Shown here in pieces: positions 29,597 through 58,936 of a stretch of DNA of 64,000 nt (position 1 is its first letter; the number at the start of each line of letters is the position of its first letter). Location of the stretch: positions 105,037 through 169,036 of the forward strand of contig CAZELA010000002.1 in assembly GCA_964512835.1 (NCBI GenBank), given 5' to 3'. The stretch comes from an uncultured Candidatus Saccharibacteria bacterium. Its GTDB lineage: Bacteria; Patescibacteriota; Minisyncoccia; Phycocordibacterales; UBA2100. A program made the position numbers and the translations under genes. The notes beneath the pieces are model-generated. The model had not been told where the DNA came from, ran no database searches, and saw only the letters and a list, made by a program, of their open reading frames with translations.

Positions 29597-29597
29597 T

Positions 29598-30944
29598 ATG
29601 GCAAAAACTTCCATTCGTACCGACAAGATGTTCATTACCTACAACAAGGGTAAATCGAACGAATTCAAGGCGCTGCAAGACGTGAACGTCGAGATCTATC
29701 CGCGCGAATACATCATTCTGTTCGGTCCGTCCGGCTGCGGAAAGTCGACACTTTTGTACACCATGCTCGGCGGTATTCCGCCGTCCGACGGTCACATGTT
29801 CGTGCAGAACGAAGACATTTATGCGTATACGCCCGAGGAGTTGAACCGCTATCAGCAGACGACGATCGGCATCGTGTATCAGCAGTTCAACCTGATTTCG
29901 TCGCTCTCCGTTATCGATAACGTCGCGCTACCCATGCTCTTTTTGGGCATACAACCTGCCGAACGACTGGCTCGTGCGGCGCAGCTATTGCGTCGATTCG
30001 GAGTGCCGGAGCGCGTCGAGAATAAACTTCCTGTGGAAATGTCCGGCGGTCAGCAGCAGCGTGTTGCCGTTGCGCGCGCACTCATCAACGACCCGGAAAT
30101 TCTGCTCGCCGACGAACCGGTGGGTAACCTGGACTCCATTTCCGCAGAGCACGTTATGGATTCGTTCCAAGAGATCAATGAGCGCGACCGCAAAACCGTG
30201 ATCCTCGTTACGCACGATGCGAAGTACCTTCCGTATGCGCACCGGGTGTTCTACATGCGCGACGGCAAACTACGCCGCATCGTCGTGAACCCGCAGAAAG
30301 AGCAGGTCAAACGAACGAAGCCCGGCGAGACCATCGTGACCGAGATCGAGCAGCTTGCACGCATGTATCCGTATGCGGAACCGGTGGAGTTGAAGGTGAA
30401 GAGTGTCGTGAACTTCGTTACGCAGTCGATCGGATTCAGCCAGGTGCAACGCCTCGAAGAAGCAATTCTGTATGTGCTGAAGGGCACCATGAACGAACAG
30501 ATGTTCTCGGAGTTTTTGGGGAAGCCGTTCCATCTGGGCGGCGTCGGTATTCCGCCCGAAGAAGTGGAGCCGATGGCAAGCAGGGTGTTCAACCTTATCC
30601 GCTATTCGATCGATGTGCAGCGATTCCGAAGCGAGACCCAGAGCGACAACATGTTTATGCACCAACAAAAGTTCGTTGAGCGACTGCTCACGTACCTGAA
30701 AGAAGAAGTCGGGTTTCAGTGTTCGCAGGAGCAGCTACGCACGCTCCGCGAAGCGGTTGCCGACCGCGTAGGCGGCATTACCGATGCCGAACAGTTCAGT
30801 GAAAGGCTTTTGTTGAACAACGAAATGGGCGGCGCAGGATTCGAGGAACGAATGGGATACAAAATAGCAGTGCACATGGAAAAACTTATCGCCCAAGGCG
30901 GGTACGTCATTCTCCCGAACGAACTGGAGGGAGGCCACACTTGA
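29598..30944 (+). CDS. ABC transporter ATP-binding protein (MacB/LolD/FtsE-type) with an atypical C-terminal extension of about 220 aa
   Basis: Walker A is GPSGCGKST, the Q-loop is VYQQFNL, the signature is MSGGQQQRVAVARAL, Walker B is ILLADEP and the H-loop is VTHD. The ABC domain ends near residue 230. A further domain of about 220 aa with no motif I recognise follows. Confidence 0.9.
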   Translation: MAKTSIRTDKMFITYNKGKSNEFKALQDVNVEIYPREYIILFGPSGCGKSTLLYTMLGGIPPSDGHMFVQNEDIYAYTPEELNRYQQTTIGIVYQQFNLISSLSVIDNVALPMLFLGIQPAERLARAAQLLRRFGVPERVENKLPVEMSGGQQQRVAVARALINDPEILLADEPVGNLDSISAEHVMDSFQEINERDRKTVILVTHDAKYLPYAHRVFYMRDGKLRRIVVNPQKEQVKRTKPGETIVTEIEQLARMYPYAEPVELKVKSVVNFVTQSIGFSQVQRLEEAILYVLKGTMNEQMFSEFLGKPFHLGGVGIPPEEVEPMASRVFNLIRYSIDVQRFRSETQSDNMFMHQQKFVERLLTYLKEEVGFQCSQEQLRTLREAVADRVGGITDAEQFSERLLLNNEMGGAGFEERMGYKIAVHMEKLIAQGGYVILPNELEGGHT

Positions 30945-30945
30945 T

Positions 30946-32154
30946 ATGCAGGTACGCGACATTGCATTGCTTTCGACCCGTATGTTCAAAACGAACCCGT
31001 CTCGTACGTGGCTTACGATTTTGGGCATGGGTGTGGGAACGGGTGCCGTTGTGGCGCTGGTGGGTTTGGGCTTCGGTCTCCAGAGCATCATCCTCGACAA
31101 GATCGTGCTCGGCGACTCGCTGCTCTCGCTCAACGTTTCGAACCCCGCATCAAAGATCGTCGTGCTCGACCTGCCGACGACCGAAGCGTTCGCTGCCATG
31201 GATACGGTCAAAGATGTTTCCGGCGTGGTTACGTTCCCGACGCTTGTTACGTATCAGGGTCTGACCGGTAACGCCAACATTCAGGGTCTCGCGCCGTCGT
31301 ACTTTTTGTATACCGGCGCACAGGCTGCGGCAGGGGATCTGTTTACGAATGAGGACGCAGAGACCGATCGCAATGCGGTCGTTATCAGTAGTGCCATGCT
31401 GAAGCTCTTCGGTGTCGAAGATCCCGAAGAGGTGCTCGGTAAAACGCTTACCTTTCGCGTATTTGTACCGAACGAAGGCAGTGAATCAACGACAGAAGTG
31501 CAGCTGCCCAAGCAGTACAAGATCAAGGGGGTAACGGCCGACACCGGCAACCTGTCCGCAGCGATCACGCTCGAGGAGTTTCAGTCCAATTTTAAGATTC
31601 CGTATTTCGATCGCGTACAGGTGCGTGTAATCGACACCAAATCACTGCCACTCGCCCAGGACGCCATCATTGCTAAGGGTTTTACCGTGACCGCACTCTC
31701 AAAAACAGTGGAACAGGCGAACAAGATCTTTCAGGGCATCCAGGTGATTCTCGCGGTGTTCGGCGGCATTGCGCTTACGGTATCCGCGATCGGTATGTTC
31801 AACACCATGACCGTTACGCTCCTCGAGCGTACGGCCGAGATCGGTGTTATGCGTACGATCGGCGCATCGTCAAAAGACATCGTTATCTTGTTCGTGGCAG
31901 AGGCCATTATCGTGGGTTTGTTGGGCGGTGTGGTGGGGATCCTCATCGGGGGAGGCATCGGCATGTTCTTCAACGGACTCCTCTCAGTGGCTGCAAGTAA
32001 ATTCGGGGGAGAATCGGTCAGTCTCTTCAAATACCCGGTCTGGTTCCTTATATTCATCTGCTCGTTCTCGGGCGGGGTAGGGTTCCTCACGGGGCTTTTT
32101 CCGGCTAGGCGTGCCGCAAAGATCAACCCGCTCGACGCGATCCGTTACAAATAG
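30946..32154 (+). CDS. ABC transporter permease, FtsX/MacB family (4 TM with a large extracytoplasmic domain between TM1 and TM2)
   Basis: TM1 is TWLTILGMGVGTGAVVALVGLGFGL. A soluble domain of about 230 aa follows, then three C-terminal TMs with the FtsX-like motif LERTAEIGVMRTIGAS..DI. Its start is 1 nt after the ATPase stop. Confidence 0.85.
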   Translation: MQVRDIALLSTRMFKTNPSRTWLTILGMGVGTGAVVALVGLGFGLQSIILDKIVLGDSLLSLNVSNPASKIVVLDLPTTEAFAAMDTVKDVSGVVTFPTLVTYQGLTGNANIQGLAPSYFLYTGAQAAAGDLFTNEDAETDRNAVVISSAMLKLFGVEDPEEVLGKTLTFRVFVPNEGSESTTEVQLPKQYKIKGVTADTGNLSAAITLEEFQSNFKIPYFDRVQVRVIDTKSLPLAQDAIIAKGFTVTALSKTVEQANKIFQGIQVILAVFGGIALTVSAIGMFNTMTVTLLERTAEIGVMRTIGASSKDIVILFVAEAIIVGLLGGVVGILIGGGIGMFFNGLLSVAASKFGGESVSLFKYPVWFLIFICSFSGGVGFLTGLFPARRAAKINPLDAIRYK

Positions 32155-32238
32155 CATTCAGTTAAGCCGTAAAATCGGTACTTATCCACATTGGAAACCC
32201 TCGTAAAGAGGGTACGGGTGCTACGATTCTTAGTAAGT

Positions 32239-34140
32239 ATGTCCGAAACGATGCATCGGAGGCTAGGCGTATTCCTCAAACGGACACGCACGACCGAGGG
32301 AAAGATCACGATTTTTACGTCGCTGGTCGGCTGTTTGGTCTTGGTATGCGTATTTACGATATTCCAGGTGAACGTGCCTGTGGCAAGCGCCGACGACGTG
32401 CAGACGTCTGTCACTGTGCTTAACACACCGCCCACATTTGATACCGATGTCGCTGAATCTCCGGCATCCGCTACGACAACGCCCACGAACGCTGGGGCGG
32501 TGTTGTCGTTCACGGTGCAGGCCACCGACTCGTCGGGAGACAACTACTACCTGCTAATCTGCAAGGTTGGAGGGACGGCAACGGGCAACTCGGGCGCTGC
32601 GCCCACATGCCCAGGCGGTATATCGAATCAGTGGGCGGTATCGGGCGCAACGGCGAGCGGTGCCGTAGCAACGGCCGCAACCACCACCAAGAACGATCTG
32701 CCGTTCAATAACGAGCGCAACGACTGGTTTGCGTACATTTGTGATAACAACGCGACGCTCGCGCGCTGCAACGCAACCGCAAACCGCGGAACACCCAATG
32801 CTGATAGCGCGTCTCCGTTCTTTATCAACCACATCCCGGTGTTTTACTCACTCTCCAACAACTCCCCACAAAACCCGGGCGGTACCGTAACCTGGACCAC
32901 CGGATCGTCGGACCCTGATTCGCTGGCCGGGGCGCAAAATATTACGTTATACGTGTGTAAGACGGCGGCATTTAACGGGTCGCAGTGCACAACGGGCGGT
33001 GCATGGGCAACGTCTACAGCGGTTACCTCGAATGCGGGTACATCAACACCTATTGCGATTCCGACCGCCGATCGCTTGTATAACGCCTATGTATACATCT
33101 CGGATCAATACGGACTCGCCGCAACGTCCTCGTTCCAAGGATCGAACTCGTTCTTTTCTGTAAGTAACCAAACGCCTTCGATAAGTGCGGCAGGCATCAG
33201 TCTGCTTGATACGGACAACGTTGGTAACCTTACGCTTACCGTACCGCAGGCGACATCCGGCCCGTTCAAGGTTCAGTTCGTGGTCGCGGACAACAACGGG
33301 TGTTTGAATGCATCATCTACAAGCGAAATTGTTTCCAATGTGATTTCGGTGTACCGATCAAGTGCAACATGCACATCCGGCTCTAACTACGATTCCAACA
33401 ACTGCTATGCATCGTCGTCGCCCTTGTTCACGCCGTTCTATTCGTGTGCCATTGATTCCGCGGTCAACGCCTGCAGTGGCGCAACGGACAGCGATGTCGG
33501 CGTGACATGCACGTTCTCGCTGTGGTACAACGCCGACGCAACAGACGGTGTTTCCTCTGCAACGTCTGTGTACTTTGCCGACAACTGGCTCGCTGCGGTG
33601 CGAGCAACCGATGACAACGCATCGTCGAGTCCGGTTACGGTCTCCTCGACCGGTAATGAGCTGACGAGCTTCCTCGCGTTCGATGTTTCTACAACGACTG
33701 TGGCATACGGCTCGTTGCAGCCGGGCGAAACAACAACGCCGATGATCGCCAACACCGACCTCAAGGCAGTCGGTAACGTGGGTCTCGATGAGGATCTCTA
33801 CGGTTCCACCATGTGCACCACCTGGGTGGGTGGAGGCGGCGGTTCGGCTCCGGATAACTGCGATGTCGGTGGTCCGAACGCAGGTACCAAGATCCCGGTA
33901 GGCCAGCAGCGCGTCGCAACATCATCTATCGCGTATTCATCGACCGATTCGTACACGCTTACCGCATCGACTTCGCCGGCATCGGTCCTGATCAACGTGC
34001 AAAAGACAACTGCTACGAGCTCGCCGCAAACCAAGAACACCTATTGGGGTATCGCGATCCCGACGACCATCACACTCGCCGGTAACTACTCGGGCCAAAA
34101 CACTATCGTCGGAAAGAAGAGCAGTCCTGCTAACTGGTAG
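32239..34140 (+). CDS. Secreted/anchored Thr/Ser-rich protein. Its C-terminal domain is paralogous to the giant protein's C-terminus (NWLAAVRATDD ... YWGIAIP).
   Basis: The start is trimmed to ATG 32239 (the track begins at 32191). A signal-anchor (IFTSLVGCLVLVCVFTIF) is followed by the mature N-terminus ADDVQTSVTVL. The C-terminal region of about 250 aa aligns by eye with the last 250 aa of the 6369-aa protein. Confidence 0.7.
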   Translation: MSETMHRRLGVFLKRTRTTEGKITIFTSLVGCLVLVCVFTIFQVNVPVASADDVQTSVTVLNTPPTFDTDVAESPASATTTPTNAGAVLSFTVQATDSSGDNYYLLICKVGGTATGNSGAAPTCPGGISNQWAVSGATASGAVATAATTTKNDLPFNNERNDWFAYICDNNATLARCNATANRGTPNADSASPFFINHIPVFYSLSNNSPQNPGGTVTWTTGSSDPDSLAGAQNITLYVCKTAAFNGSQCTTGGAWATSTAVTSNAGTSTPIAIPTADRLYNAYVYISDQYGLAATSSFQGSNSFFSVSNQTPSISAAGISLLDTDNVGNLTLTVPQATSGPFKVQFVVADNNGCLNASSTSEIVSNVISVYRSSATCTSGSNYDSNNCYASSSPLFTPFYSCAIDSAVNACSGATDSDVGVTCTFSLWYNADATDGVSSATSVYFADNWLAAVRATDDNASSSPVTVSSTGNELTSFLAFDVSTTTVAYGSLQPGETTTPMIANTDLKAVGNVGLDEDLYGSTMCTTWVGGGGGSAPDNCDVGGPNAGTKIPVGQQRVATSSIAYSSTDSYTLTASTSPASVLINVQKTTATSSPQTKNTYWGIAIPTTITLAGNYSGQNTIVGKKSSPANW

Positions 34141-34229
34141 GTACGCTGTTGCGCAAAAGGGGTTCAAAGTCGGGGAATATCCAGGTTTTACTGGACTTTT
34201 GAGGGCCTCACCGTGATACTATTGAGACC

Positions 34230-35228
34230 ATGATGTCACTGCCGTGGCGGCTGTTAGGACTGCGGTTTTTTGCCGCCCTACTCTTGATACTTGTCTTTTT
34301 TGGCGGGTTCAGGTTTGCCTCGGCCGGATTTGGTATCACGCCGCCGTACGTCCAGAATGAACGCCTCACGCGCGGAACGGTGTATGAACAGCGCATCACC
34401 ATTGTGCGCTCGGACCCGACCGTAGATCAAAAAGCGGAGATAAGTATGAACATCCCGGGTGTCGAATCCTGGTTCGTCGTTGACCGTGGCACATCGTTCC
34501 TGCTTCCAAAAGGTGAGACGCAGGTACCGATCGTGATCGCGGTGCATGTGCCGGCAGATGCAGAATACACACGGCACCAAGGAACCATCCGAATCCGCAC
34601 GTCGTCAGCGGAGGGTTCAGACGGTGGAGCCGGCGTGTCGATTGCACTCGGTGCGCAGATCGACGTTGATATTAAGGTCGTCGACAAGATCTACGATTTT
34701 GACGTGCGACGCATTCGCAGTGCGGACGTGGAAGAGAGTCGTCGCAGGTGGGGACTTGTGTTCCCGGCAAAGATTCGGTTTTTCATGACGATCGAGAACA
34801 CGGGTAATGCTGTGTACGGACCGACAAAAGTAAAATTTGATATCTACGACAGCGAGGTGGAGAAGCTATACGAGACGACATACAACACCAACAAGATCGA
34901 TCAGATCGATCCGTTCGCGATCAAGGAAGTGCTCGCGGAATTGCCGACGCGGTTACCAGTGGGGCGCTACACGGCTAAGTACACGATCTACAAGGGCGAA
35001 GAGATCGCGCAACAGAATCAGATAAATCTTTCGATTGCATCGCTCGGCGCCGTGCAGGGGTATACAGGCTACGGTTTTGACGGGCTCTCGACAAAGGACA
35101 AACTGAAAGTTGCCGGCGTTGTTTCGATACCTGTACTGCTTTTGCTGAGCCTGTTCATCGCACTTGGCGTGCGCCGCCGCAGACAGCGGGCCCGCCGTAA
35201 CGCATACCAAAACGCGGCTCGCCGCTAG
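34230..35228 (+). CDS. Surface protein with signal peptide, beta-rich ectodomain and a C-terminal TM anchor (DUF916/CscA-like architecture)
   Basis: Signal peptide (LLGLRFFAALLLILVFFGGFRFASA). The ectodomain carries the motifs WFVV, HVPADAEYTRHQGTIRI and VAGVVSIP. A TM (VLLLLSLFIALGV) follows, then a basic tail (RRRRQRARR). Same layout as 54768, 56114 and 58937. Confidence 0.7.
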   Translation: MMSLPWRLLGLRFFAALLLILVFFGGFRFASAGFGITPPYVQNERLTRGTVYEQRITIVRSDPTVDQKAEISMNIPGVESWFVVDRGTSFLLPKGETQVPIVIAVHVPADAEYTRHQGTIRIRTSSAEGSDGGAGVSIALGAQIDVDIKVVDKIYDFDVRRIRSADVEESRRRWGLVFPAKIRFFMTIENTGNAVYGPTKVKFDIYDSEVEKLYETTYNTNKIDQIDPFAIKEVLAELPTRLPVGRYTAKYTIYKGEEIAQQNQINLSIASLGAVQGYTGYGFDGLSTKDKLKVAGVVSIPVLLLLSLFIALGVRRRRQRARRNAYQNAARR

Positions 35229-35234
35229 CGCGGT

Positions 35235-36371
35235 ATGCATATGGTCGACAAACGTCTCGCGGTACCGGGCCTCATTGTCGTCGCGGCATTTTTGCTCGGC
35301 ATTATGATCCAGTTCGCGTTTGCCGCAGATGTACAGACGTCGCTCTCGATGCTCGTGTGCGGCGACGGTATAAACGGCGGCGGTGTTGAAGTGTGTGACG
35401 ACGGGATCAACCTCGGCGGTTACGGCTCCACGACTGCCGAGCGTAAATGCATGCCGGGCTGCACTGCATACGACAACTACTGCGGCGACGGTATTCTGCA
35501 GGCTCGGTTCGGTGAGCAGTGCGACGACGGAAACACGATAGCGACCGACTTGTGTTCACTGTCATGCCGCACACTTGCACCAGCCGGTTCCACGGTATCG
35601 GGCTCGCCGACCGTCGGCTCGACGCCGTTCATTCCCGGTGCACAAGCGGGCACTATCGCATCAGAAACACAGACGCGCGTCGTGCTGCGCGGCAAGGCCT
35701 ACCCGAACGCTGTGGTCAATGTGCTGCTCGACGGAAAAATAAAAGGTACCGCACTCGCGGATTCGAACGCCGACTTTCAGTTCATTTCGACCGAGATCAC
35801 GCCGGGTACCGCCACGTTCGGCTTCACGGCAAAGGATTCCAACGGAGTGGAATCGGTCACGACATCGGTCGTGTTCGATGTGGCGCAGAGCGCGGTATCC
35901 ACCGTCGCAAACGTATTCTTCCCGCCAACGATCCAGGTGAGCGAGCGCCAAGTGCCGAAAGGTGAGCCCCTGACGGTCTCCGGTTTTTCGGTGCCGAAAG
36001 CAAGTATTTCGAGCGAGATCGGCGGCGGCACAAAGACGACACTGAACGCAACTGCCGACGGGACGGGGGCATGGGCGCTGCGTGTTGATACCTCGTCACT
36101 GACCGACGGCATGCACACCGTAAAATCGTACTTCAAACTCGACACGAGCATTCAGTCCGGATTCGGTAAGTCGATATCGTTTAGTGTGGGAGAGGGAGCG
36201 TTTGCCGATACGGGCTCAGCGGATCTCAACGGCGACGGCAAAGTGAACCTCGTCGACTTCTCGATCTTTCTGTTGAAGTGGCAATCCGACGACATTCAGA
36301 GCGACTTCAACGCCGACGGCACGGTCAATCTGGGAGACTTTTCGATCATGTTGTTTAACTGGACCGGATAA
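35235..36371 (+). CDS. Secreted protein with Myxococcus-type cysteine-rich repeats, an Ig-like region and a C-terminal dockerin
   Basis: Signal peptide, then the mature N-terminus ADVQTSLSML. Two repeats have the form CGDG..N...E.CDDG.N / CGDGILQARFGEQCDDGNT...CS.SC. The C-terminal dockerin pair is DLNGDGKVNLVDFSIFLLKW....DFNADGTVNLGDFSIMLFNWTG. Confidence 0.75.
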   Translation: MHMVDKRLAVPGLIVVAAFLLGIMIQFAFAADVQTSLSMLVCGDGINGGGVEVCDDGINLGGYGSTTAERKCMPGCTAYDNYCGDGILQARFGEQCDDGNTIATDLCSLSCRTLAPAGSTVSGSPTVGSTPFIPGAQAGTIASETQTRVVLRGKAYPNAVVNVLLDGKIKGTALADSNADFQFISTEITPGTATFGFTAKDSNGVESVTTSVVFDVAQSAVSTVANVFFPPTIQVSERQVPKGEPLTVSGFSVPKASISSEIGGGTKTTLNATADGTGAWALRVDTSSLTDGMHTVKSYFKLDTSIQSGFGKSISFSVGEGAFADTGSADLNGDGKVNLVDFSIFLLKWQSDDIQSDFNADGTVNLGDFSIMLFNWTG

Positions 36372-36403
36372 ATATGACGCTAAAAAACCGCTATACTGCT
36401 CGT

Positions 36404-37327
36404 ATGAATCGCGTTTTGGTCGCCATCGCACTCGGCGCTGCGCTTGTTGTTCCCGCTCTTGTTGATGCGGCGACTATTTACGTAAACCCCACCGAGGGAA
36501 CATACGGCCTCTCCGACACATTCATCACCGACATTCGCCTCGACAATCAGAACGAATGTGTGAATGCTATCCACGTTGAAATCCGCTACCCGACCGAAAC
36601 ACTCCGAGCCGTCGATTTCAGTAAGGGCAATTCGATCCTCAGCCTGTGGATCGAAGAGCCGAAGATTGATACCGATAAAGGCACAATCTCGTTCTCCGGC
36701 GGCATCCCGGGAGGGTATTGCGGACGAATCCCGGGCGACCCCGTGCTCTCCAATGTGCTCGGCAAGATCGTCTTTAGTGTGGTCGGTGCCGAGCAAAAAA
36801 GCGCAACCGTTTCCGTCGAGGAAGGTTCTGCGGTATACAAGAACGACGGACAGGGCAGCCGTGCCGAGCTCACTCGTCAGAGCGGTATTTATTCAATCAA
36901 GCCGACGCCACTCTCCGCTACTAATCCGTGGCTCGCGCAAGTCGGAGACGACAAGACTCCGCCGGATGAATTCGTGATTACCGTTGAATCAACACGCGGG
37001 GTATTCGGCGGCGATTACTACGCGGTCTTTTCGACCGAGGACAAACAGAGCGGACTCGACCACTACGAGATCTTCGAGCGCGGCAGCTGGCGGCCCGTTA
37101 CGTCCCCGCATCAGCTGAAGGATCAGCACCTGCTCAATATTCAGATCAAAGCAATCGACAAAGCAGGTAATGAACGCATGGGTACATATGTGCAGGGCAG
37201 TGCGGCGCCGCGTGTTCCGGAAGAGAACGACTACTCGATCGCGATCGCAGTCGTCATCGGACTGCTCCTGCTTGGCGGGTACATGTGGTATCGCGACCGC
37301 AAGCGCAAGGCCTCCGCCGCAGCATGA
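36404..37327 (+). CDS. Cohesin-domain protein with a C-terminal TM anchor (cell-surface anchoring scaffold)
   Basis: The start is at ATG 36404 (MNRVLVAIALGAALVVPALVDA); the track begins at 36374. The cohesin-like region is ATIYVNPTEGTYGLSDTFITDIRL......IHVEIRYP.E.L.....S.GNSILSLW.......DKGTISFSGGIPGG. A C-terminal TM (IAIAVVIGLLLLGGYMWY) and a basic tail follow. Confidence 0.7.
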   Translation: MNRVLVAIALGAALVVPALVDAATIYVNPTEGTYGLSDTFITDIRLDNQNECVNAIHVEIRYPTETLRAVDFSKGNSILSLWIEEPKIDTDKGTISFSGGIPGGYCGRIPGDPVLSNVLGKIVFSVVGAEQKSATVSVEEGSAVYKNDGQGSRAELTRQSGIYSIKPTPLSATNPWLAQVGDDKTPPDEFVITVESTRGVFGGDYYAVFSTEDKQSGLDHYEIFERGSWRPVTSPHQLKDQHLLNIQIKAIDKAGNERMGTYVQGSAAPRVPEENDYSIAIAVVIGLLLLGGYMWYRDRKRKASAAA

Positions 37328-38292
37328 AACGGTACCTCGCACTTGTAGGAGTATGCCTCTTTGCTCTACCGGGAGTCGTGTGCGCGGCCGAGGGTGTGCT
37401 CTACATTTCTCCCGACCACGGCACCTATACGCTCGACAGTGAATTCGTAGTCGACGTGCTGGCTGATACCGACGGAACCGCGTCGTTTGCCGCCGAGGCC
37501 GATATTGCATTCAATCCGCAGTCGCTCGCCGTACAAAAAATCTCGACCGACGGTTCGGTGCTCGCGCTCTGGCCGACGCCGCCCGAATTCTCGAATACCA
37601 AAGGAACAATCAGATTCTCGGGAACTGCCGCCGAGCGATTCAATGCTCGTGACGCGCGGCTTATTCGGATAACCTTCCGGGCGATCGGGGTACATGCGGC
37701 AGACCTGCACATCGAATCCGGCGCTATACTCGAGAACAACGCACGTGCGATGAACATCATTACATCGATGCGTTCCGCCAATCTCACGATTGTCGCAAAA
37801 CAGGACGTGCCTACTCCTCCTGAAACGGTCGCCGTGCCCGAGACTGAACCCATCGTGCCCGAGGTGAAGGGTGCACAAATCTCTGTCCCGAATATCAGCG
37901 GCTATGACGACCGCGTGTCTGTCGGCGACCGCATCACTTTGCAGGGGAGTGCCACACCGGATTCGTCGATCACGGTTTTTTTGCAGCATGACGACGACAC
38001 ACCGATCGAAAGCACGGTGCTCACGACTCGCGACGGATCGTTCACGTATGTTGCCCGCGAGAAAGCGGTGCGCGGCGTATATCGCGCTTGGGCGACCGCG
38101 GCAGGAACCAGCGAACCGCTTATGTCCGACAAGGTTGTGATCGCCGTGGGAGGCAACGCATTTGCTGCCGCTGCCGAGAGCCTGACACCAATGCTGTTGA
38201 TGGGCTTGCCGTATTTGCTCGCACTCATCGTTGCCGGCATCTCGCTCGGATTTTTGTATAACCGTCGTTCCGCAACAAAGCGGATCATGTAA
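37324..38292 (+). CDS. Cohesin-domain protein with a C-terminal TM anchor (second anchoring scaffold)
   Basis: The start ATG 37324 overlaps the previous stop (ATGA). Signal peptide is MKRYLALVGVCLFALPGVVCA. The cohesin-like region is EGVLYISPDHGTYTLDSEFVVDVL......FAAEADIAF.P.SL......DGSVLALW.......TKGTIRFSG. A Thr/Pro linker and C-terminal TM (LLMGLPYLLALIVAGISLGFLY) follow. Confidence 0.7.
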   Translation: MKRYLALVGVCLFALPGVVCAAEGVLYISPDHGTYTLDSEFVVDVLADTDGTASFAAEADIAFNPQSLAVQKISTDGSVLALWPTPPEFSNTKGTIRFSGTAAERFNARDARLIRITFRAIGVHAADLHIESGAILENNARAMNIITSMRSANLTIVAKQDVPTPPETVAVPETEPIVPEVKGAQISVPNISGYDDRVSVGDRITLQGSATPDSSITVFLQHDDDTPIESTVLTTRDGSFTYVAREKAVRGVYRAWATAAGTSEPLMSDKVVIAVGGNAFAAAAESLTPMLLMGLPYLLALIVAGISLGFLYNRRSATKRIM

Positions 38293-39078
38293 CTACTGAC
38301 GCATTCGCGTAAAGAAAATCGACAGGTCGGCCAGATTGCATGCGCCGTCACGATCAAGGTCGTACTTCGCGTTATACGGTGCGATGATCTGGATCGCGAT
38401 GATCGAAAGGTCTACAACGTTCACTTTGCCGTCGCCGTTGAAGTCGATCGTCGGCGGGGCAAGTGTCTCGTCATTCATTTTGGATGCCGCAGTGCTACGG
38501 GATGCGGGTGCTTCGTCCGGGATATCAAACGTATAGATTCTCCTGCTGCTCTGTACCTCCGTGCCTTTTCCGTCGGCTGCGAATATTTGTGCGTCTTTGA
38601 ACGACAGCTGCGCGGAGCCGGATTTCTTTGCCTTGAGCGAAAGCGTAACGATGGTGCCGATCCCCGAAAGGCCTCCGCCTTCGATGGTACCGCCCGAAAA
38701 ATGCACCTCACCGAGCTTTTCTTTGATGCTGGTTTCCTCGGTCCACAGATCCAGGAACGAGTTTTCTTTGCTGATACCCACGATCTCTATCATGTCCTCC
38801 GGAAATTTGATCGTCGCACCGACCGTATTGATCGGCGTCTTTGTGTTGATGCGGATGTCGACATCGGTCGTCTCGCCGACTTTCAGTGTGGACGAGCTGT
38901 GAGGGGAGATATACAGCACGGTCTCGTTTCCCATTGATGCGGCGCTCCCTGCGATCAGGGTCACGATCGAGTCGCCGCGGTTGATGAGCACGGTTGTGGA
39001 AGCGGTAAGCAGTACTAAAACAGCGATTGCATGAAGAATGCCGATTTTGTGCACGAAATCAGCGATCCTGTGGAACAT
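38293..39078 (-). CDS. Cohesin + dockerin adaptor scaffold protein
   Basis: N-terminal signal-anchor (ILHAIAVLVLLTASTTVL). The cohesin-like region is TVLYISPHSSSTLKVGETTDVDIRINT.TPINTVGATIKFPEDMIEIVGISKENSFLDLW........GEVHFSGGT. The C-terminal dockerin pair is DFNGDGKVNVVDLSIIA.....KYDLDRDGACNLADLSIFFTRM. Confidence 0.7.
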   Translation of the reverse strand: MFHRIADFVHKIGILHAIAVLVLLTASTTVLINRGDSIVTLIAGSAASMGNETVLYISPHSSSTLKVGETTDVDIRINTKTPINTVGATIKFPEDMIEIVGISKENSFLDLWTEETSIKEKLGEVHFSGGTIEGGGLSGIGTIVTLSLKAKKSGSAQLSFKDAQIFAADGKGTEVQSSRRIYTFDIPDEAPASRSTAASKMNDETLAPPTIDFNGDGKVNVVDLSIIAIQIIAPYNAKYDLDRDGACNLADLSIFFTRMRQ

Positions 39079-39093: not shown

Positions 39094-39870
39094 TCATTCC
39101 TCAACGGCCGGTGACGGGATGATGAAGGGGGTGTTTACACTCAGGATCGTTGTCGTGGATTCGTAATTATCACCGTGGACAAGTACGCCGCGCACGGACG
39201 GCGTATCATCGATAAGTACGTCCACTGTCCCGGTGGCGATCCGCTGTACAAGGGATCGTAGCGTTCCGCCCTCGACAAGCTGCCCCTCCTTCGATACTCG
39301 GAAACGATACGAGTGGTACGTCGTGGTGCCGACCGAGAGGTCGGTCGGTTTACCGGTAAGCGTCAGATACGCGCCGCCGTTCCCAAGGATCGCCAGCGTG
39401 TCCAAAAACGGTCCCGCAACGGCGATGTTCTGATACTGCGGGGGAATGGAAGCTGCGGGTAGGCGGTGCCACTCCGGACCGTTTGGGATCGTCTTTTTTA
39501 AGAGCGGGCTGTCAGTCTCGATTTTTACGTACACGCTGTCTCCGACAGCCAGGTTCTGGAGGCTAAAAGTATGGGATTGCTCATGTTTGGACAGTTCGGG
39601 CGTGAAGAGGGTGGTGGTTGCGAACGATCCATATCGTTTGCCCTCATAATCCAGCCTATAGAGGCCGGAAATGCGCATAGCGCGCGCCGAGACCACGGTC
39701 GCTGTGTCCACTGTCATTTCGTACGATCGAAGCCCTTGAACGGCTTGTATAGCGGTTTGAAGCCGCTCATCGAACGAGCCCGATGACTCCGCTCTGTAGA
39801 GTAGGTATCCGCCTACCAACAGACCGACAAGGCAGATGGCTATCGCATATCTGTAAACGTGCGTATGCAT
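39094..39870 (-). CDS. Membrane-anchored exported protein (hypothetical)
   Basis: The start is trimmed to ATG 39870 (MHTHVYRYAIAICLVGLLVGGYLLY is a signal-anchor); the track begins at 39993. No recognisable motif. Co-directional with the cohesin-dockerin adaptor. Confidence 0.5.
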   Translation of the reverse strand: MHTHVYRYAIAICLVGLLVGGYLLYRAESSGSFDERLQTAIQAVQGLRSYEMTVDTATVVSARAMRISGLYRLDYEGKRYGSFATTTLFTPELSKHEQSHTFSLQNLAVGDSVYVKIETDSPLLKKTIPNGPEWHRLPAASIPPQYQNIAVAGPFLDTLAILGNGGAYLTLTGKPTDLSVGTTTYHSYRFRVSKEGQLVEGGTLRSLVQRIATGTVDVLIDDTPSVRGVLVHGDNYESTTTILSVNTPFIIPSPAVEE

Positions 39871-40041
39871 GGCGGACGTCTCATCAGTGTATAGGTCATC
39901 AGGTAGAGAACAAGGGGTTCGTCGCGCAAAAAAGGACAGCGACCGGATCAAAAAATGGCGAAAGACAAACTCGACACCTCGAAAGTTGTCCACATCGAAA
40001 AATAGGCTAAAAACCTAGGGATTATACAATTACCTCATGAC

Positions 40042-40088
40042 ATCTCGACCCCCGAGATTGCATAAATGAGTAAAACTCGACCCTCGAG
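40042..40088 (+). promoter_or_regulatory. Two palindromic operator-like sites immediately upstream of, and overlapping the start of, the HTH gene
   Basis: Site 1 is ATCTCGACCCCCGAGAT (40042..40058, perfect 6-bp arms). Site 2 is CTCGACCCTCGAG (40076..40088, perfect 5-bp arms). Both share the half-site CTCGA-CCC-TCGAG, are about 30 bp apart, and the second abuts the start codon at 40091/40097. Confidence 0.4.
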
Positions 40089-40090
40089 AT

Positions 40091-40486
40091 TTGCCTATGA
40101 TGACGAAAAAAAGCGAATACATTTCACTTCGAGAAGCGGCGGCCATGTCCGGCTACACTCCCGACTATGTCGGGCAGTTGATTCGCAGCGGAAAACTGCC
40201 GGGTAAGCAGGTGTTTGCAAACGTCGCTTGGATGACGACCGAGGACGCACTTCGTGACTACATGGACAAAAAGCGTGGTGCTCCGCTCACAAAAGGGGCG
40301 GTATCGACGGGTTTTATGAACACTATTCAGCGAGAGATCGAATCGCCGCGCCTCGTAAAGCGGCTTTCGATCGCTCTCATGATCGTGAGCGTCGCATTCC
40401 TGATGCTTGTTTTCTACATATTTTCAACTTCGCTCGACCAGCGACTCAATCAGCGCGCCATTCAGCGCCTCGAGCAACAAACCTGA
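40091..40486 (+). CDS. Small helix-turn-helix (excisionase/MerR-like HTH) protein with a C-terminal TM helix
   Basis: The HTH is ISLREAAAMSGYTPDYVGQLIRSGKLPGKQV; the pattern hydrophobic-xxEAA..hG.s...h..hh..G.hP is typical of HTH_17/excisionase-type domains. A C-terminal TM follows (LSIALMIVSVAFLMLVFYIFS). The track uses TTG 40091; ATG 40097 is equally possible. Confidence 0.65.
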   Translation: MPMMTKKSEYISLREAAAMSGYTPDYVGQLIRSGKLPGKQVFANVAWMTTEDALRDYMDKKRGAPLTKGAVSTGFMNTIQREIESPRLVKRLSIALMIVSVAFLMLVFYIFSTSLDQRLNQRAIQRLEQQT

Positions 40487-40490
40487 TCAC

Positions 40491-43400
40491 ATGAACACAC
40501 ATACACGATCATGGGTAAGCATGAATCGAAGCATCCCGCGACTGATCGCGGTTCTTGCATGTGTGATTATGTGCACGATTGCTTTCGCAGACACGGCGCA
40601 CGCAGCAACCGGGGTGCCGCGAATCATGAACTACCAGGGCCGTCTCATGAACTCGGGCGGTTCGCTCCTCGGCGGATCGAGCGGCACGGATTACTGCGTA
40701 AAGTTCTCGCTCTACGACAACGCATCCGTCGGTTCCGGCACGAAGCTGTGGCCGTCGTCGGCGCCGTCGACTATGACGGTCAATGTGAAGAGCGGTGTGT
40801 TTAATGCGGGTGTGGGAGACACGAATGCCGGGGGAGACACGTTGAACTTTGATTTTGAGTCGAACGATGCGGTGTACCTCAACGTCGAAGTGGCAAGCAA
40901 GGTCGGTGCGACGTGCGCTGCCGGCGACGGTGCAGAGAGTTTTGAAAATCTGTCACCCCGTCAGCGCGTGACCGCGTCGGGGTACGCAATCAATTCTGCA
41001 ACGCTCGGCGGTCAGACCGGGGCGTACTACCGCGCAAATTCATACTCAACCACGAGTGCCGCGTACGACCTCTCAACGTACGACAAAGGGTATTTCTTTT
41101 CGACGACGTCGGTGAACTACTGGAATTCGACGGTAGGTGCCTGGGCGACAACCTCGTCAGATGCGTGGTTTGCAACAAAGACGACAGATAACCTTCCGCA
41201 GGGTATTACGAATCTGTACTACTCGAACAGCGCGGTCAATGCATTCCTTGCGGGATCAACGACGGTTGCGAAGTCGTTCAGTAACAACTCGTTCAGCGGC
41301 GTGAATAATTTCACGGGCGACGTAACGCTCACCAATGCGACGACCTCGAATTTTAATATTCTGAACACTGTTTCGGGTGGCGGACTTGTTTCGTGCTCGG
41401 CGAGTTCGGACAAACTCATCTGGAATGCTACGACGCGGCAGTTCGGATGTGGTGCAGATGCCGGGGCAGGCGGCGGTTTGACGGCGCTCGGGGCGGAATT
41501 CTCCTCGTATCAGACAGGTTCGTCTCAGACGCTTGCAACGAGCTCGGATACAAACATCGGCATCACCATTACGTCATCCGGCGACACGCACACGTTCACC
41601 CCGACCTGGTCGGGAACACTCGGTGCCGGTCGCGGCGGAACCGGTATCGGTTCGGTATCACAAAACGGCATCCTGATCGGCGCGGCGGGAAATACATGGT
41701 CGCAGGTATCAACGTCGTCCCTCGGTCTGCCGACATTTGCGACTCTCTCGTCGTATCTCGGACTCTCGGCGTGGTACGCAACCACGACCGATGCGCTTAC
41801 CGAAGGTGTAACGAACAAGTATTACACCGATACACGCGTTGCGAGCGTGATCGCAGGCACGACTACCGACGCGCTCGCAGAGGGTGCAACAAACAAGTAC
41901 TACACGGACAACCGCGTACAAACATACTTGAACGGCGTCGACAAGGGGTTCTACTTTTCTACCACCAGCGCATCACAGTTCGCATCCGTCGGTCTTGCGT
42001 TCTCGACAACATCAGCAGCGTACTTTAATTCCGTTAATCCCGGGGCATCATTTTCTACCACATCGGCCTCGTACTTCTCGTCGCTCGGTCTCGCATACTC
42101 GACGACATCGACTGCGTTCAATCTGTCGACCTACGACAAGGGTTACTTCTTCTCGACCACATCGGTCGCGTTCTGGGATTCGACGCAGTTCCGATGGGCA
42201 ACCACCAGCTCGGACGCATGGCTCGCGACGAAGTCGACAACGGATCTTGCCGAAGGCAGCAACCTCTACTACACGCCGACTCGTGTTGCCGGTGTGATTG
42301 CAGGCACCACGACCGATGCGCTGGCAGAGGGAACGAACAATAAGTACTTCACCGATAATCGTGTGGCGAGCGTGATCGCCGGCACCACAACTGATGCGCT
42401 TGCCGAGGGAAGCGTGAACAAGTACTACTCGAACGGGTTGGTGCAGACGTATTTGAACGGCGTCGACAAAGGCTACTTCTTCTCGACCACGTCGGCGCTG
42501 TACTTCAATGCGCAGAATCCTGGTGCGTCGTTCTCAACAACCTCTGCGGATTTCTGGAAGACGCAGAACAATTTCCACTCAACCACATCGTTTGCGTTTA
42601 ATCTTTCGACCTACGACAAGGGATACTTCTTCTCGACGACATCGGTGAATTACTGGGAGGGAACACAGAACCGCTGGGCGACAACATCATCAGATGCGTG
42701 GCTTGCGACCAAGTCCACGAGCGATCTTGCGGAGGGAAGTAATCTCTACTACACCCCGACTCGTGTTGCCGGTGTGATTGCAGGCACCACGACCGATGCG
42801 CTGGCAGAGGGAACGAACAATAAGTACTTCACCGATAATCGTGTCGCAACCGTTATCGCCGGCACTACCACTGATTCACTCGCAGAGGGTGCGACAAACA
42901 AGTATTACCAGGATTCGCGCGTTGCCTCATACATCAACGGCTCGTCCACGATCCCGTCGGTCGGGGGAGGTGCGTACGGCGATATCTTATCGTGGAACGG
43001 TTCGCGCTGGAGCGTGGCTGCTACATCATCGATCGGGCTCCCGACATTTGCGAATCTTGCAAACTACTTCACGCTCGCGTCGTGGTACGCAACCACAACT
43101 GATGCGCTCGACGAGGGAGTAAACAATATGTATTTCACGCCGGCGCGGTTTGCAGCATCGCTCGCAGCGACAACGACCGACGCGCTCGCGGAAGGCACGA
43201 ACAATCTCTACTTCTCTACGAACCGAGTCGCGACGGTACTTGCCGCAACCACAACCGATGCGATCGCAGAGGGAAGCGCGAACAAGTACTACAATGATTC
43301 CCGCGTTCAGACGTTCCTTAATACAATTTCCAAAGGCTACTTCTTCTCCACCACGTCGGCGTCGAATTTTGCATCCGCCGGACTCGCGTTCTCTACCACG

Positions 43401-52928: not shown

Positions 52929-53399
52929 ATGACCATCGATCTCCGTAAACATGCAGCCCGTCCGGAATACGAACACGCCCGTATGCCGAACGCGCCGCGC
53001 GCGGAGACGCATACCGATGTTCCGCGTGCGCGTATGCAGCCGAAACGGTCACGCGAAAAGCTTGTGATGCTCGTTGCGGCGGGCGCAATCGCACTTATTG
53101 TGTTGATACTCGTTATATTCGGTATCACAAAGGCGTGGGGAGCGCTTTTTGGCGGAACCGAATACGAAATGAAGTCTCTGGTTGCCGACGTCGGCGAGCA
53201 CATGCTCCTGCCGGAGAACGAAACCCCGACACTCGCGACCGTGAGCGATCTGCACGCGCTCGAAGGGCAGATGTTCTTCCGCAATGCGGCAGTGGGCGAC
53301 AAGGTCCTTATGTACCTCGTATCGCAACAGGCGATTCTGTATCGGCCTTCGATCGACAAGATTATTGAGGTCGGGCCGATAACCGGCAGTGCACAATAA
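52929..53399 (+). CDS. Small N-terminally anchored exported protein (hypothetical)
   Basis: Basic N-terminus, one TM (LVMLVAAGAIALIVLILVIFGI), then about 100 aa of soluble domain. Its stop is 1 nt before the next gene's start. Confidence 0.45.
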   Translation: MTIDLRKHAARPEYEHARMPNAPRAETHTDVPRARMQPKRSREKLVMLVAAGAIALIVLILVIFGITKAWGALFGGTEYEMKSLVADVGEHMLLPENETPTLATVSDLHALEGQMFFRNAAVGDKVLMYLVSQQAILYRPSIDKIIEVGPITGSAQ

Positions 53400-53400
53400 T

Positions 53401-54735: not shown

Positions 54736-54767
54736 GTTGTGCATAAAAAGCAGCTCTAATCCTTGTT

Positions 54768-56111: not shown

Positions 56112-56113
56112 GT

Positions 56114-57430: not shown

Positions 57431-57678
57431 GACTGTTCTCCACGGGCCGCTTGCGTCGGAACTCAGGTTTTAAGCGGTTATCCCCATCGTTTGGCTTGAT
57501 ATCAGAGGCTTTGTCAATACGATACCGTATACTTTACACAGGCGTGTTTTGTGGGTTCGGTACGTTTCTAGCTGCATTGGTCGAGCAATTGCAGGTGGAC
57601 GCGTATTTCTCTCTTATCGAACTATAGATACGCCTATTAGTACAAAGCAGTTAAAAAATCGAATTAGTTCACTGTTAT

Positions 57679-58833: not shown

Positions 58834-58936
58834 ACGCAGCAAACAGAGCTCGAAGTTTGCAGACATCCCCGCACTACGCGGGGATGTTGCGTTCATGGCG
58901 TGGTACAGTATGGCCATACTCCCTAAGACGGAAAAC

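What the first reader, a model, noticed from the sequence alone, without database searches (positions are those of the whole stretch)
35235..39078. Complete three-tier cohesin/dockerin surface scaffold without any glycoside hydrolase in the neighbourhood
Four adjacent genes give all parts of a cellulosome-style assembly line.
- Two proteins with a cohesin ectodomain and a C-terminal TM anchor (36404..37327 and 37324..38292, with an ATGA start/stop overlap).
- One cohesin+dockerin adaptor on the opposite strand (38293..39078).
- One dockerin-bearing cargo with Myxococcus-type Cys-rich repeats (35235..36371).

A further TM-anchored cohesin lies at 6259..7743. A second dockerin cargo at 61333..63033 ends in the same ...LFNWTG dockerin.

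The dockerins carry the canonical duplicated Ca-binding loop D.N.DG.VN..D, followed by the hydrophobic helix. No cellulase or other carbohydrate-active catalytic domain is present, so the scaffold likely displays adhesins or structural cargo rather than enzymes. The cohesin-bearing anchors use TM helices rather than SLH or sortase anchors.
Basis: partly seen in the sequence, partly recalled or inferred. Interest (0 to 1): 0.7.

Follow-up and report, generated by a model that had tools for sequence, protein, structure and literature searches.

The report
Non-cellulosomal cohesin–dockerin surface tethers, Parcubacteria
A tiny, probably symbiotic bacterium (Parcubacteria, candidate phyla radiation) encodes real cohesin and dockerin "plug-and-socket" modules that appear to fasten non-enzymatic stalk proteins to its membrane, in a gene cluster conserved across more than 150 related species and unrelated to cellulose digestion.

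Summary
All six ORFs exist with the stated ends, topology and ATGA overlap. Three proteins carry duplicated F-hand dockerins, all above the Pfam cut-off. Four carry cohesins. Only the adaptor cohesin passes Pfam, but AF2 models of the adaptor and of the Pfam-negative 36404..37327 protein match only solved cohesins at the top of a PDB fold search. All four cohesins also find each other by BLASTP.

No glycoside hydrolase or CBM occurs in the window, in 80 related genome loci, or among 119 metagenomic proteins with the same dockerin. Every such cargo is a variable head, two Ig-like domains and a dockerin.

It is not a scaffoldin: each protein has one cohesin, and the three-tier hierarchy is untested.

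The cluster lies in a conserved Parcubacterial operon: fn3, ABC, MacB, p629, p332, cargo, Coh1, Coh2, adaptor, giant protein. The cargo-type dockerin gene is followed by a membrane-cohesin gene in 75 of 88 independent contigs.

Best reading: a Ca-dependent, non-cellulosomal tethering system for surface or adhesion proteins. It is a new variant of a known kind and moderately interesting.

The parts
35235..36371 (+). CARGO: signal peptide, DUF4215/myxo Cys-rich repeats, two Ig-like domains, and a C-terminal class-A dockerin (36219..36368) ending ...LFNWTG*
   Evidence: Pfam DUF4215 30.6 bits and Dockerin_1 26.4 bits. TIGR02232 45.9 bits. Ca loops at 36222-36245 and 36303-36326. Orthologues lie directly upstream of Coh1 in 69 of 80 genome loci.
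36404..37327 (+). Coh1: signal peptide, cohesin (about 36470..36901), FN3/Ig-like domain (about 36956..37189), TM helix (about 37223..37291), and a short basic tail
   Evidence: No Pfam hit. AF2 pLDDT 90.6. Foldseek against PDB: the first 44 of 50 listed matches are cohesins, the best being the cohesin-FN3 module 2w1n at E = 3e-11, with TMt 0.75-0.77 to type I cohesins. There are 1,490 clusters at 50% identity with E <= 1e-30. C52 and C106 are invariant.
37324..38292 (+). Coh2: signal peptide, cohesin (about 37393..37773), Ig-like region, and C-terminal TM helix (about 38191..38247). Its start overlaps the Coh1 stop (ATGA).
   Evidence: Pfam Cohesin 17 bits, below the cut-off. BLASTP to CohX E = 2e-18 and to Coh1 E = 3e-12. 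TM helix. Overlap.
38293..39078 (-). ADAPTOR: N-terminal hydrophobic helix (anchor or long signal peptide), cohesin (38521..38922), a roughly 25-aa disordered linker, and a class-B dockerin (38296..38445)
   Evidence: Pfam Cohesin 25.1 bits and Dockerin_1 23.6 bits, both above cut-off. AF2 pLDDT 85. All 50 listed Foldseek matches are cohesins, with TMt 0.77-0.79 to the non-cellulosomal cohesins of C. perfringens and A. fulgidus. Profile hits to solved dockerins at E = 6e-7. 85 homologues at 26-98% identity, most 38-98%.
6259..7743 (+). CohX: signal peptide, cohesin, Ig-like domains, TM helix, and a cytoplasmic coiled-coil tail of about 85 aa. In other genomes it lies directly after a CARGO2-type gene and before a giant gene.
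   Evidence: Pfam Cohesin 23.5 bits. BLASTP to the other cohesins. TM helix. Synteny CARGO2-CohX-GIANT1.
61333..63033 (+). CARGO2: signal peptide, a different head domain, the same Ig-Ig-dockerin tail, and a class-A dockerin ending ...LFNWTG*
   Evidence: Dockerin_1 27.5 bits and Big_13 33.5 bits. 34% identity to CARGO over the last 240 aa. Ca loops at 62884-62907 and 62965-62988.
28157..35228 (+). Conserved upstream part of the same operon: fn3-repeat protein, ABC ATPase, MacB/FtsX permease, p629 (secreted, Cys-rich), and p332 (two Ig-like domains plus C-terminal TM, WxLIP-like)
   Evidence: Pfam. Same order in distant Parcubacteria. p332 against a WxLIP_PGBD-like protein by hhalign: probability 89%, E = 2e-6.
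39094..51614 (.). Conserved downstream neighbours: p258 (minus strand, N-terminal TM), an HTH_17 protein with C-terminal TM (40097..40486), and a 3,697-aa giant repeat protein (40521..51614) with an internal Peptidase_G2 IMC domain

Best explanation
What it is. This is a genuine but non-cellulosomal cohesin-dockerin system of a Parcubacterium (Patescibacteria / candidate phyla radiation).

Shown:
- Secreted stalk proteins consist of a variable head, two Ig-like domains and a C-terminal type-I-like dockerin of a very conserved class A.
- Their genes lie immediately upstream of genes for single-cohesin membrane proteins (signal peptide, cohesin, FN3/Ig spacer, TM helix).
- A third component carries one cohesin plus a distinct class-B dockerin.

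Inferred mechanism:
- After Sec export, the Ca-loaded dockerin of each stalk protein plugs into the conserved face of a membrane-anchored cohesin. This is presumably the canonical 8-3-6-5 sheet.
- The head is thereby tethered non-covalently a fixed distance above the membrane, without sortase or SLH anchoring.
- By gene adjacency, the likeliest pairs are CARGO with Coh1, CARGO2 with CohX, and the adaptor dockerin with Coh2.
- This would leave the adaptor cohesin free to add one more dockerin protein or to cross-link.

Inferred role. The module is one segment of a conserved surface operon: fn3 protein, MacB-type ABC transporter, p629, WxLIP-like p332, cohesin/dockerin genes, giant fibre proteins. 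Its role is therefore most likely envelope architecture or host/partner adhesion, not polysaccharide breakdown.
For: - Modules: Pfam; AF2 plus Foldseek; PDB sequence searches; mutual BLASTP.
- Topology.
- Dockerin form: both repeats are loop plus exiting helix with no entering helix, and the two repeats are nearly identical.
- Conservation of the family: the Coh1 family occurs in at least 157 GTDB species genomes, almost all titled as Patescibacteria lineages. It has 1,490 clusters at 50% identity with E <= 1e-30.
- Conservation of gene order: the order is kept in 80 loci, with cargo next to Coh1 in 69 of 80. It is also kept in loci at only 31-73% identity.
- Independent adjacency test: among the 88 of 120 metagenome contigs (selected only by the class-A dockerin C-terminus) that have at least 900 bp of downstream sequence, the next gene is a TM cohesin in 63. 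In 12 more it follows after one inserted gene.
- Dockerin distribution: in these loci only cargo-type and adaptor-type proteins carry dockerins.
- Cargo content: all class-A dockerin proteins share the Ig-Ig-dockerin tail, and ten diverse representatives have no catalytic domain.
- Cohesin conservation: in Coh1, strands 5, 6 and 8 and the 106-117 loop are the most conserved parts, and the C-terminal strands the least.
- Precedents: a dockerin-domain protein is essential in the cultured Saccharibacterium Southlakia (PMC10633639). Cohesin and dockerin proteins are expressed in a groundwater CPR bacterium (10.1101/2021.08.21.457207).
Against: - No direct or predicted complex was obtained, so binding, Ca dependence and partner assignment are inferred from homology and synteny only.
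- Three of the four cohesins fall below Pfam's cut-off.
- The cargo dockerin's best PDB sequence hit is a generic EF-hand protein, at scores similar to those of dockerins.
- Class-A dockerins next to Coh1-type and CohX-type cohesins are almost indistinguishable. No clean specificity code was found.
- The rest of the genome was not available, so dockerin-bearing enzymes elsewhere cannot be excluded.
- The adhesion or architecture function is inferred from domain content and neighbours only.
Confidence: 0.7

Rival explanations
1. One reading: a strict three-tier hierarchy. Membrane cohesin anchors bind a free, secreted cohesin-dockerin adaptor, which in turn binds the dockerin cargo.
For: - The adaptor has both modules and a flexible linker.
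- A nearly invariant Ala followed by small residues, 6-9 residues before the first cohesin strand, looks like a signal-peptidase I site. The protein may therefore be released.
- Two dockerin classes exist, as a hierarchy requires.
- The adaptor gene follows the second cohesin gene in 38 of 80 loci.
Against: - The cargo gene is glued to Coh1, not to the adaptor.
- CARGO2-type genes pair with CohX with no adaptor nearby.
- Several loci with 10 kb of downstream sequence have cargo, Coh1 and CohX but no adaptor.
- The adaptor's hydrophobic segment of about 21 residues is long for a cleaved signal peptide.
- No binding data exist.
Confidence: 0.25
2. A true cellulosome-like enzyme display system. 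Its dockerin-bearing glycoside hydrolases would be encoded elsewhere in the genome.
For: - The modules are homologous to cellulosomal ones.
- One paper interpreted CPR cohesin and dockerin proteins as a cellulosome (10.1101/2021.08.21.457207).
- The remainder of the genome was not examined.
Against: - No protein has more than one cohesin, and there is no CBM.
- No GH occurs in 64 kb or in 80 related 20-kb loci.
- All 119 real hits to the class-A dockerin terminus are Ig-stalk proteins.
- None of ten diverse representatives has a catalytic domain.
Confidence: 0.05
3. The modules do not pair. The "dockerins" would be Ca-binding EF-hand-type stabilisers of the stalk proteins, and the "cohesins" generic beta-sandwich spacers or ligand-binding domains of membrane proteins.
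For: - Many non-cellulosomal cohesin-like and dockerin-like modules have no demonstrated partner (own knowledge; Peer et al. 2009, FEMS Microbiol Lett 291:1).
- Pfam scores are marginal.
- EF-hand proteins score like dockerins against the cargo tail.
Against: - The dockerin gene is immediately followed by a cohesin gene in 85% of 88 independently selected contigs.
- The order holds across deep divergence.
- Both repeats have the F-hand form, and the class-A dockerin is very highly conserved.
- In Coh1, conservation peaks on the strands that form the canonical binding sheet.
Confidence: 0.1

Closest known systems
Non-cellulosomal cohesin-dockerin pairs: Clostridium perfringens toxin/glycosidase complexes (NagH/NagJ, PDB 2ozn, 2jh2, 2vo8, 2w1n) and the Archaeoglobus fulgidus cohesin (2xdh)
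   Same: - These are the best structural matches. The adaptor cohesin has TMt 0.77-0.79 to 2jh2, 2vo8 and 2xdh.
- Coh1 best matches the cohesin-FN3 double module 2w1n.
- The adaptor dockerin's best single-sequence PDB hit is the NagH dockerin 2jnk/2ozn.
- All have single cohesins per protein and no scaffoldin.
   Different: - In C. perfringens the modules sit on secreted glycoside hydrolases and toxins. Here they sit on non-enzymatic Ig-stalk proteins and on TM-anchored proteins.
- Here the partners are encoded as adjacent genes in a lineage-wide conserved operon.
Cellulosome anchoring and adaptor scaffoldins (C. thermocellum OlpA/OlpC/SdbA; A. cellulolyticus ScaA/ScaB; R. flavefaciens ScaE)
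   Same: - Type-I-like cohesin fold, with TMt 0.7-0.77 to OlpC, CohA2, ScaB Coh6 and the C. cellulolyticum cohesin.
- Duplicated, internally symmetric dockerin.
- One protein combines a cohesin and a dockerin, as adaptor scaffoldins do.
- Single-cohesin cell-surface anchors exist in cellulosomes too.
   Different: - No multi-cohesin scaffoldin, CBM or dockerin-borne CAZyme.
- Anchoring is by a C-terminal TM helix instead of SLH repeats or sortase.
- The host is an ultra-small CPR bacterium.
WxL / Csc cell-surface complex clusters of Firmicutes (CscA/DUF916-DUF3324, WxL proteins)
   Same: - The surrounding locus holds WxLIP_PGBD-like membrane-anchored two-domain proteins.
- It also holds secreted partners with shared C-terminal domains.
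- This is the same logic: operon-encoded, non-covalently assembled surface complexes.
   Different: - No WxL domain was detected by Pfam.
- Cohesin and dockerin modules are not part of Firmicute WxL clusters.
- The relationship of p332 is remote (hhalign probability 89%).

Membership tests
Cohesin (Pfam PF00963) | Nine-stranded beta-sandwich (jelly-roll) cohesin fold | tested here: met
   AF2 models of the adaptor and Coh1 have pLDDT 85 and 90.6. In Foldseek against PDB, all 50 listed matches for the adaptor and the first 44 for Coh1 are cohesins, with TMt up to 0.79. Coh2 and CohX were not modelled. They are linked by BLASTP at E = 2e-4 to 2e-18.
Cohesin (Pfam PF00963) | Score at or above the curated Pfam gathering cut-off (24.1 bits) | tested here: inconclusive
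   Adaptor 25.1 bits (met). CohX 23.5, Coh2 17.0 and Coh1 no hit (not met).
Cohesin (Pfam PF00963) | Binds a dockerin on the 8-3-6-5 sheet | not testable with these tools
   No multimer prediction was available. The only indirect evidence is that strands 5, 6 and 8 are the most conserved in Coh1.
Dockerin type I (Pfam PF00404) | Two tandem segments of about 22 residues, each a 12-residue Ca loop (D1, N/D3, D/N5, position 9, D12) followed by a helix, with no entering helix | tested here: met
   The regex finds both loops in CARGO and CARGO2 and the first loop in the adaptor. The adaptor's second loop (DLDRDGACNLAD) is read directly from the sequence. Consensus over 163 distinct class-A sequences. 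AF2 places two helices at adaptor residues 221-232 and 249-260.
Dockerin type I (Pfam PF00404) | Score at or above the Pfam cut-off (22.9 bits) | tested here: met
   26.4, 27.5 and 23.6 bits. Relatives reach 30-40 bits.
Dockerin type I (Pfam PF00404) | Ca-dependent binding to a cognate cohesin | not testable with these tools
   Only synteny is available: a cohesin gene lies next to the dockerin gene in 75 of 88 contigs.
Cellulosome | Scaffoldin with multiple cohesins, usually with a CBM | tested here: not met
   Each of the four proteins has one cohesin, and there is no CBM hit.
Cellulosome | Dockerins borne by carbohydrate-active enzymes | tested here: not met
   None in the window. None in the dockerin proteins of 80 genome loci. 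None among representatives of the 119 metagenomic class-A dockerin proteins. The whole genome was not available.
Cellulosome | Cell-surface attachment through SLH modules or sortase (LPXTG) | tested here: not met
   No SLH or LPXTG hit. C-terminal TM helices are used instead.
Adaptor scaffoldin | Cohesin(s) and a dockerin of a different specificity in one secreted polypeptide | tested here: inconclusive
   Both modules are present, and the dockerin class differs from the cargo class. Whether the N-terminal helix is cleaved is unresolved. Specificities were not tested.

The most novel reading that the evidence does not exclude
The cohesin/dockerin genes would be the tethering module of an undescribed, lineage-wide Parcubacterial envelope machine. 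In it, a MacB-type ABC mechanotransducer, WxLIP-like membrane proteins, cohesin-dockerin tethers and giant fibre proteins are co-encoded and together build the host-attachment organelle of these episymbionts. Cohesin-dockerin pairing would then be the general way these cells fix proteins to their surface, in place of sortase or SLH anchoring.
Probability: 0.3. Interest if true: 0.8.

Novelty: new variant of a known kind. Interest (0 to 1): 0.58.

Why it matters
Most non-cellulosomal cohesin and dockerin modules have no known function.

CPR/Patescibacteria are a large fraction of bacterial diversity, and their surface biology and host attachment are largely unknown.

This locus gives a well-defined, deeply conserved set of candidate partner pairs. 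The dockerin gene sits next to the cohesin gene in hundreds of genomes, so binding assays and structure prediction can test the pairs directly.

The locus also ties these pairs to a MacB-type transporter and giant surface proteins. If the pairing holds, it identifies a principal protein-anchoring mechanism of Parcubacteria and a handle on how they attach to hosts.

It also cautions against reading CPR cohesin or dockerin hits as evidence of cellulose degradation, as has been done (10.1101/2021.08.21.457207).

Tried and rejected
1. The last homologous-protein search, using the 66-aa dockerin, returned only short fragments. It was useless as a cargo census and was replaced by a degenerate DNA-pattern scan of metagenomes.
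2. I looked for a specificity code by comparing class-A dockerins next to Coh1-type and CohX-type cohesins. Only weak differences appeared (linker length, repeat-2 positions 2 and 11), with no clean partition.
3. PDB sequence-profile searches for p332 and p629 gave nothing meaningful. A per-member Pfam scan of the p332 family gave only weak Ig-like hits.
4. The FGE-sulfatase-like neighbour might modify the cargo, but no CxPxR motif occurs in any window protein.
5. The promoter/terminator scan was no better than shuffles.
6. The afdb50 fold library was unavailable.
7. The Southlakia essential "dockerin" protein SEML1_0315 is an Ig-rich 927-aa protein that is not next to a cohesin. It is only a loose precedent.
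8. Long database proteins with three profile matches are Coh1 and CohX joined in one ORF, with an internal TM helix and a second signal peptide. They are not true multi-cohesin scaffoldins.

Full report

Yes. The Coh1 stop and the Coh2 start overlap as ATGA at 37324-37327. The adaptor gene abuts Coh2 convergently at 38292/38293.

A window-wide regex for the dockerin Ca loop finds five loops, all in three proteins: 35235..36371, 61333..63033 and 38293..39078. The adaptor's second loop (DLDRDGACNLAD) falls outside that regex but is plain in the sequence. Pfam Dockerin_1 is above its 22.9-bit cut-off in all three, at 26.4, 27.5 and 23.6 bits. Both repeats are loop plus exiting helix with only short Gly/Ser or acidic connectors before them. 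This is the F-hand form that separates dockerins from ordinary EF-hands.

Pfam is less kind to the cohesins. Against a cut-off of 24.1 bits, the adaptor scores 25.1, 6259..7743 scores 23.5, 37324..38292 scores 17.0, and 36404..37327 has no hit. I therefore modelled the adaptor and the Pfam-negative protein from alignments of 50 and 53 homologues, giving pLDDT 85.4 and 90.6.

In Foldseek against the PDB, solved cohesins fill all 50 listed matches for the adaptor and the first 44 for Coh1. E-values reach 2.6e-10 and 3e-11, and target-normalised TM-scores (TMt) reach 0.75-0.79.
- The closest structures are compact type-I-like and non-cellulosomal cohesins: C. perfringens 2jh2, 2vo8 and 2w1n; A. 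fulgidus 2xdh; C. acetobutylicum CohA2; C. cellulolyticum.
- Type II cohesins align worse, at TMt about 0.5-0.6.
- Coh1 is cohesin plus an FN3/Ig-like domain plus a long C-terminal helix.

The four cohesin modules detect one another by BLASTP at E = 2e-4 to 2e-18. They share the motif S.L.LW..P....G.I.FSGG.

Hydropathy confirms the stated topology. The cargo proteins have a signal sequence only. The three anchors have a signal sequence plus a C-terminal TM helix. The adaptor has one N-terminal hydrophobic segment.

No GH, CBM, SLH or LPXTG hit occurs in any protein of the window, including the 6,369-aa and 3,697-aa giants.

**2. Where does it come from, and how conserved is it?**

Homologues that carry names come from Minisyncoccia, Parcubacteria and Paceibacterota MAGs. 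Nearly identical contigs occur in several JGI metagenomes.

A scan of GTDB species genomes with the Coh1 profile confirmed at least 157 species. The 80 loci kept are almost all titled as Patescibacteria lineages: Adler-, Kaiser-, Nealson-, Nomura-, Falkow- and Harrisonbacteria, and Spechtbacterales. A few titles read otherwise and are probably mislabelled bins. A full HMMER pass over 1.84 billion cluster representatives gave 1,490 clusters at E <= 1e-30, mostly 300-350 aa and aligned end to end.

Gene order is strikingly fixed. It runs: fn3-repeat protein, ABC ATPase, MacB/FtsX permease, p629, p332, CARGO, an occasional p384-like gene, Coh1, a second TM cohesin (Coh2/CohX type), adaptor, and a giant protein.
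- CARGO sits next to Coh1 in 69 of 80 loci. Many of the remaining loci are truncated contigs.
- The order persists at 31-73% amino-acid identity.

Most of the 64-kb window is surface-protein genes of this super-locus.

**3. What are the dockerins and what do they carry?**

In the related loci only cargo-type and adaptor-type proteins carry dockerins. There are two classes.
- Class A (cargo) is always at the extreme C-terminus. It is very conserved: D-[LI]-N-x-D-G-K-V-N-L-x-D-F-S-I-x-L-[FY]-x-W, a 5-9 residue linker, then a near-copy ending WTG*. Its high internal symmetry recalls the dual-binding type I dockerins.
- Class B (adaptor) is more variable and has two subtypes.

To census the cargo I scanned metagenome contigs for a degenerate DNA pattern encoding DFSI..[FY].WTG-stop, which returned 120 loci.
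- 119 are real, and every one shares the roughly 240-aa Ig-Ig-dockerin tail.
- The heads vary: a DUF4215 Cys-rich type of about 370-390 aa, a CARGO2 type of 560-640 aa, and short forms of 280-340 aa.
- Ten diverse non-CARGO representatives show only Big_6, Big_13, fn3 and Dockerin_1 (up to 40 bits). None has a catalytic domain.

So the cargo is a small family of non-enzymatic stalk proteins, not an enzyme repertoire.

**4. Do the dockerins and cohesins belong together?**

Direct binding could not be tested. The strongest indirect evidence is synteny in contigs selected only by the dockerin terminus. Of 88 contigs with at least 900 bp downstream, the next gene is a TM-anchored cohesin in 63. 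In 12 more it follows after a single inserted gene.

CARGO2-type genes are typically arranged WxLIP-like, FGE-like, CARGO2, CohX, giant protein. In this window that pair has been split to opposite ends, at 61333 and 6259.

Within Coh1, conservation is highest on strands 5, 6 and 8 (numbered by order) and on the 106-117 loop, which is braced by the invariant C52 and C106. It is lowest on the C-terminal strands. That fits a conserved 8-3-6-5 binding face, though my strand numbering is inferred.

I could not find a clean residue code separating dockerins next to Coh1 from those next to CohX.

**5. Most likely mechanism**

Shown: the modules, their topology, and their conserved adjacency.

Inferred:
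- Sec-exported stalk proteins dock Ca-dependently onto single-cohesin membrane proteins. This fixes their heads above the membrane without sortase or SLH.
- The likely pairs are CARGO with Coh1, CARGO2 with CohX, and the adaptor's class-B dockerin with Coh2. The adaptor cohesin would then provide one more socket or a cross-link.
- Whether the adaptor is released is open. A nearly invariant Ala followed by small residues just before the first cohesin strand looks like a signal-peptidase site. The roughly 21-residue hydrophobic segment also looks like an anchor.
- The neighbours point to envelope architecture or host attachment. They are a MacB-type ABC transporter, the WxLIP-like p332 (hhalign probability 89%), proteins sharing C-terminal domains with the giant proteins, and a giant protein with a phage-fibre-type IMC domain.

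**6. Comparison with what is known**

The modules are members of the cohesin and dockerin families by fold and motif. The system is not a cellulosome: there is no multi-cohesin scaffoldin, CBM, dockerin-borne CAZyme, or SLH/sortase anchor.

The closest known systems are the non-cellulosomal pairs of C. perfringens and the orphan archaeal cohesins. Non-cellulosomal modules are known to be widespread (own knowledge: Peer et al. 2009).

In the held literature I found no paper linking cohesin, dockerin and Parcubacteria, and only passing mentions for CPR:
- an essential dockerin-domain protein in Southlakia (PMC10633639);
- expressed cohesin and dockerin proteins in a Shapirobacterales MAG, read there as a cellulosome (10.1101/2021.08.21.457207);
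- highly expressed Ig-like and "PGBD" surface proteins in archaea-parasitising Paceibacterales (PMC10936435).

The conserved operon and the rule that a dockerin gene is followed by a TM-cohesin gene appear undescribed.

**7. Verdict**

This is a new variant of a known kind. Interest is moderate (about 0.58). It offers a concrete, testable handle on CPR surface biology, but binding, hierarchy and function remain inferred.

Noticed in passing
window 40521..51614 (+), with 40097..40486 (+): A 3,697-aa repeat protein (YFFSTTS-type repeats) carries a Peptidase_G2 intramolecular-chaperone autoproteolysis domain in its middle (aa 1985-2054) rather than at the C-terminus. It is preceded by a conserved small HTH_17 protein with a C-terminal TM helix whose ORF overlaps the giant ORF's start. 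The HTH-then-giant order recurs in related loci.
   Followed up: partly
window 7894..27003 (+) and 32251..34140 (+): The 6,369-aa protein (DUF2341, Ig_Rha78A_N) and the 629-aa operon protein p629 share their last roughly 240 residues (29-34% identity, motif YWGI[SA]IP). This may be a common anchoring or assembly domain. p629 has 16 Cys, many of them invariant.
   Followed up: partly
window 53389..60019 (+) and 34230..35228 (+): Two sets pair a secreted protein ending ...TPVF* with a WxLIP_PGBD-like two-domain protein that has a C-terminal TM helix. p332 is remotely the same kind (hhalign probability 89%). This resembles Firmicute WxL/Csc surface-complex clusters, but no WxL domain was detected.
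   Followed up: partly
window 60465..61331 (+): A secreted or anchored FGE-sulfatase-like domain protein lies directly upstream of CARGO2. FGE-like genes precede CARGO2-type genes in at least 9 metagenome loci. No CxPxR target motif occurs in any window protein.
   Followed up: partly
window 6259..7743 (+); proteins P0252-P0254, P0314, P0350, P0361: CohX-type anchors carry a conserved cytoplasmic coiled-coil tail of about 85 aa after the TM helix, which suggests an intracellular partner. Some database entries have Coh1 and CohX in one ORF, with an internal TM helix and a second signal peptide.
   Followed up: no
proteins P0250, P0251, P0324, P0360: The FN3/Ig-like second domain of Coh1 (aa 174-261) occurs as 15-33 tandem copies in giant proteins of 1,600-5,300 aa elsewhere.
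   Followed up: no
window 29598..32154 (+): The ABC ATPase (448 aa, with a C-terminal extension of about 230 aa) and the MacB/FtsX-type permease are the most conserved genes of the operon, at 70-73% identity where the cohesins are 31-46%. This suggests a mechanotransmission or export role tied to the surface proteins.
   Followed up: no
locus L007 7410..12591: In one distant relative, a PrkA / SpoVR / DUF444 (YeaH-like) gene trio is inserted between the second cohesin gene and the adaptor gene.
   Followed up: no
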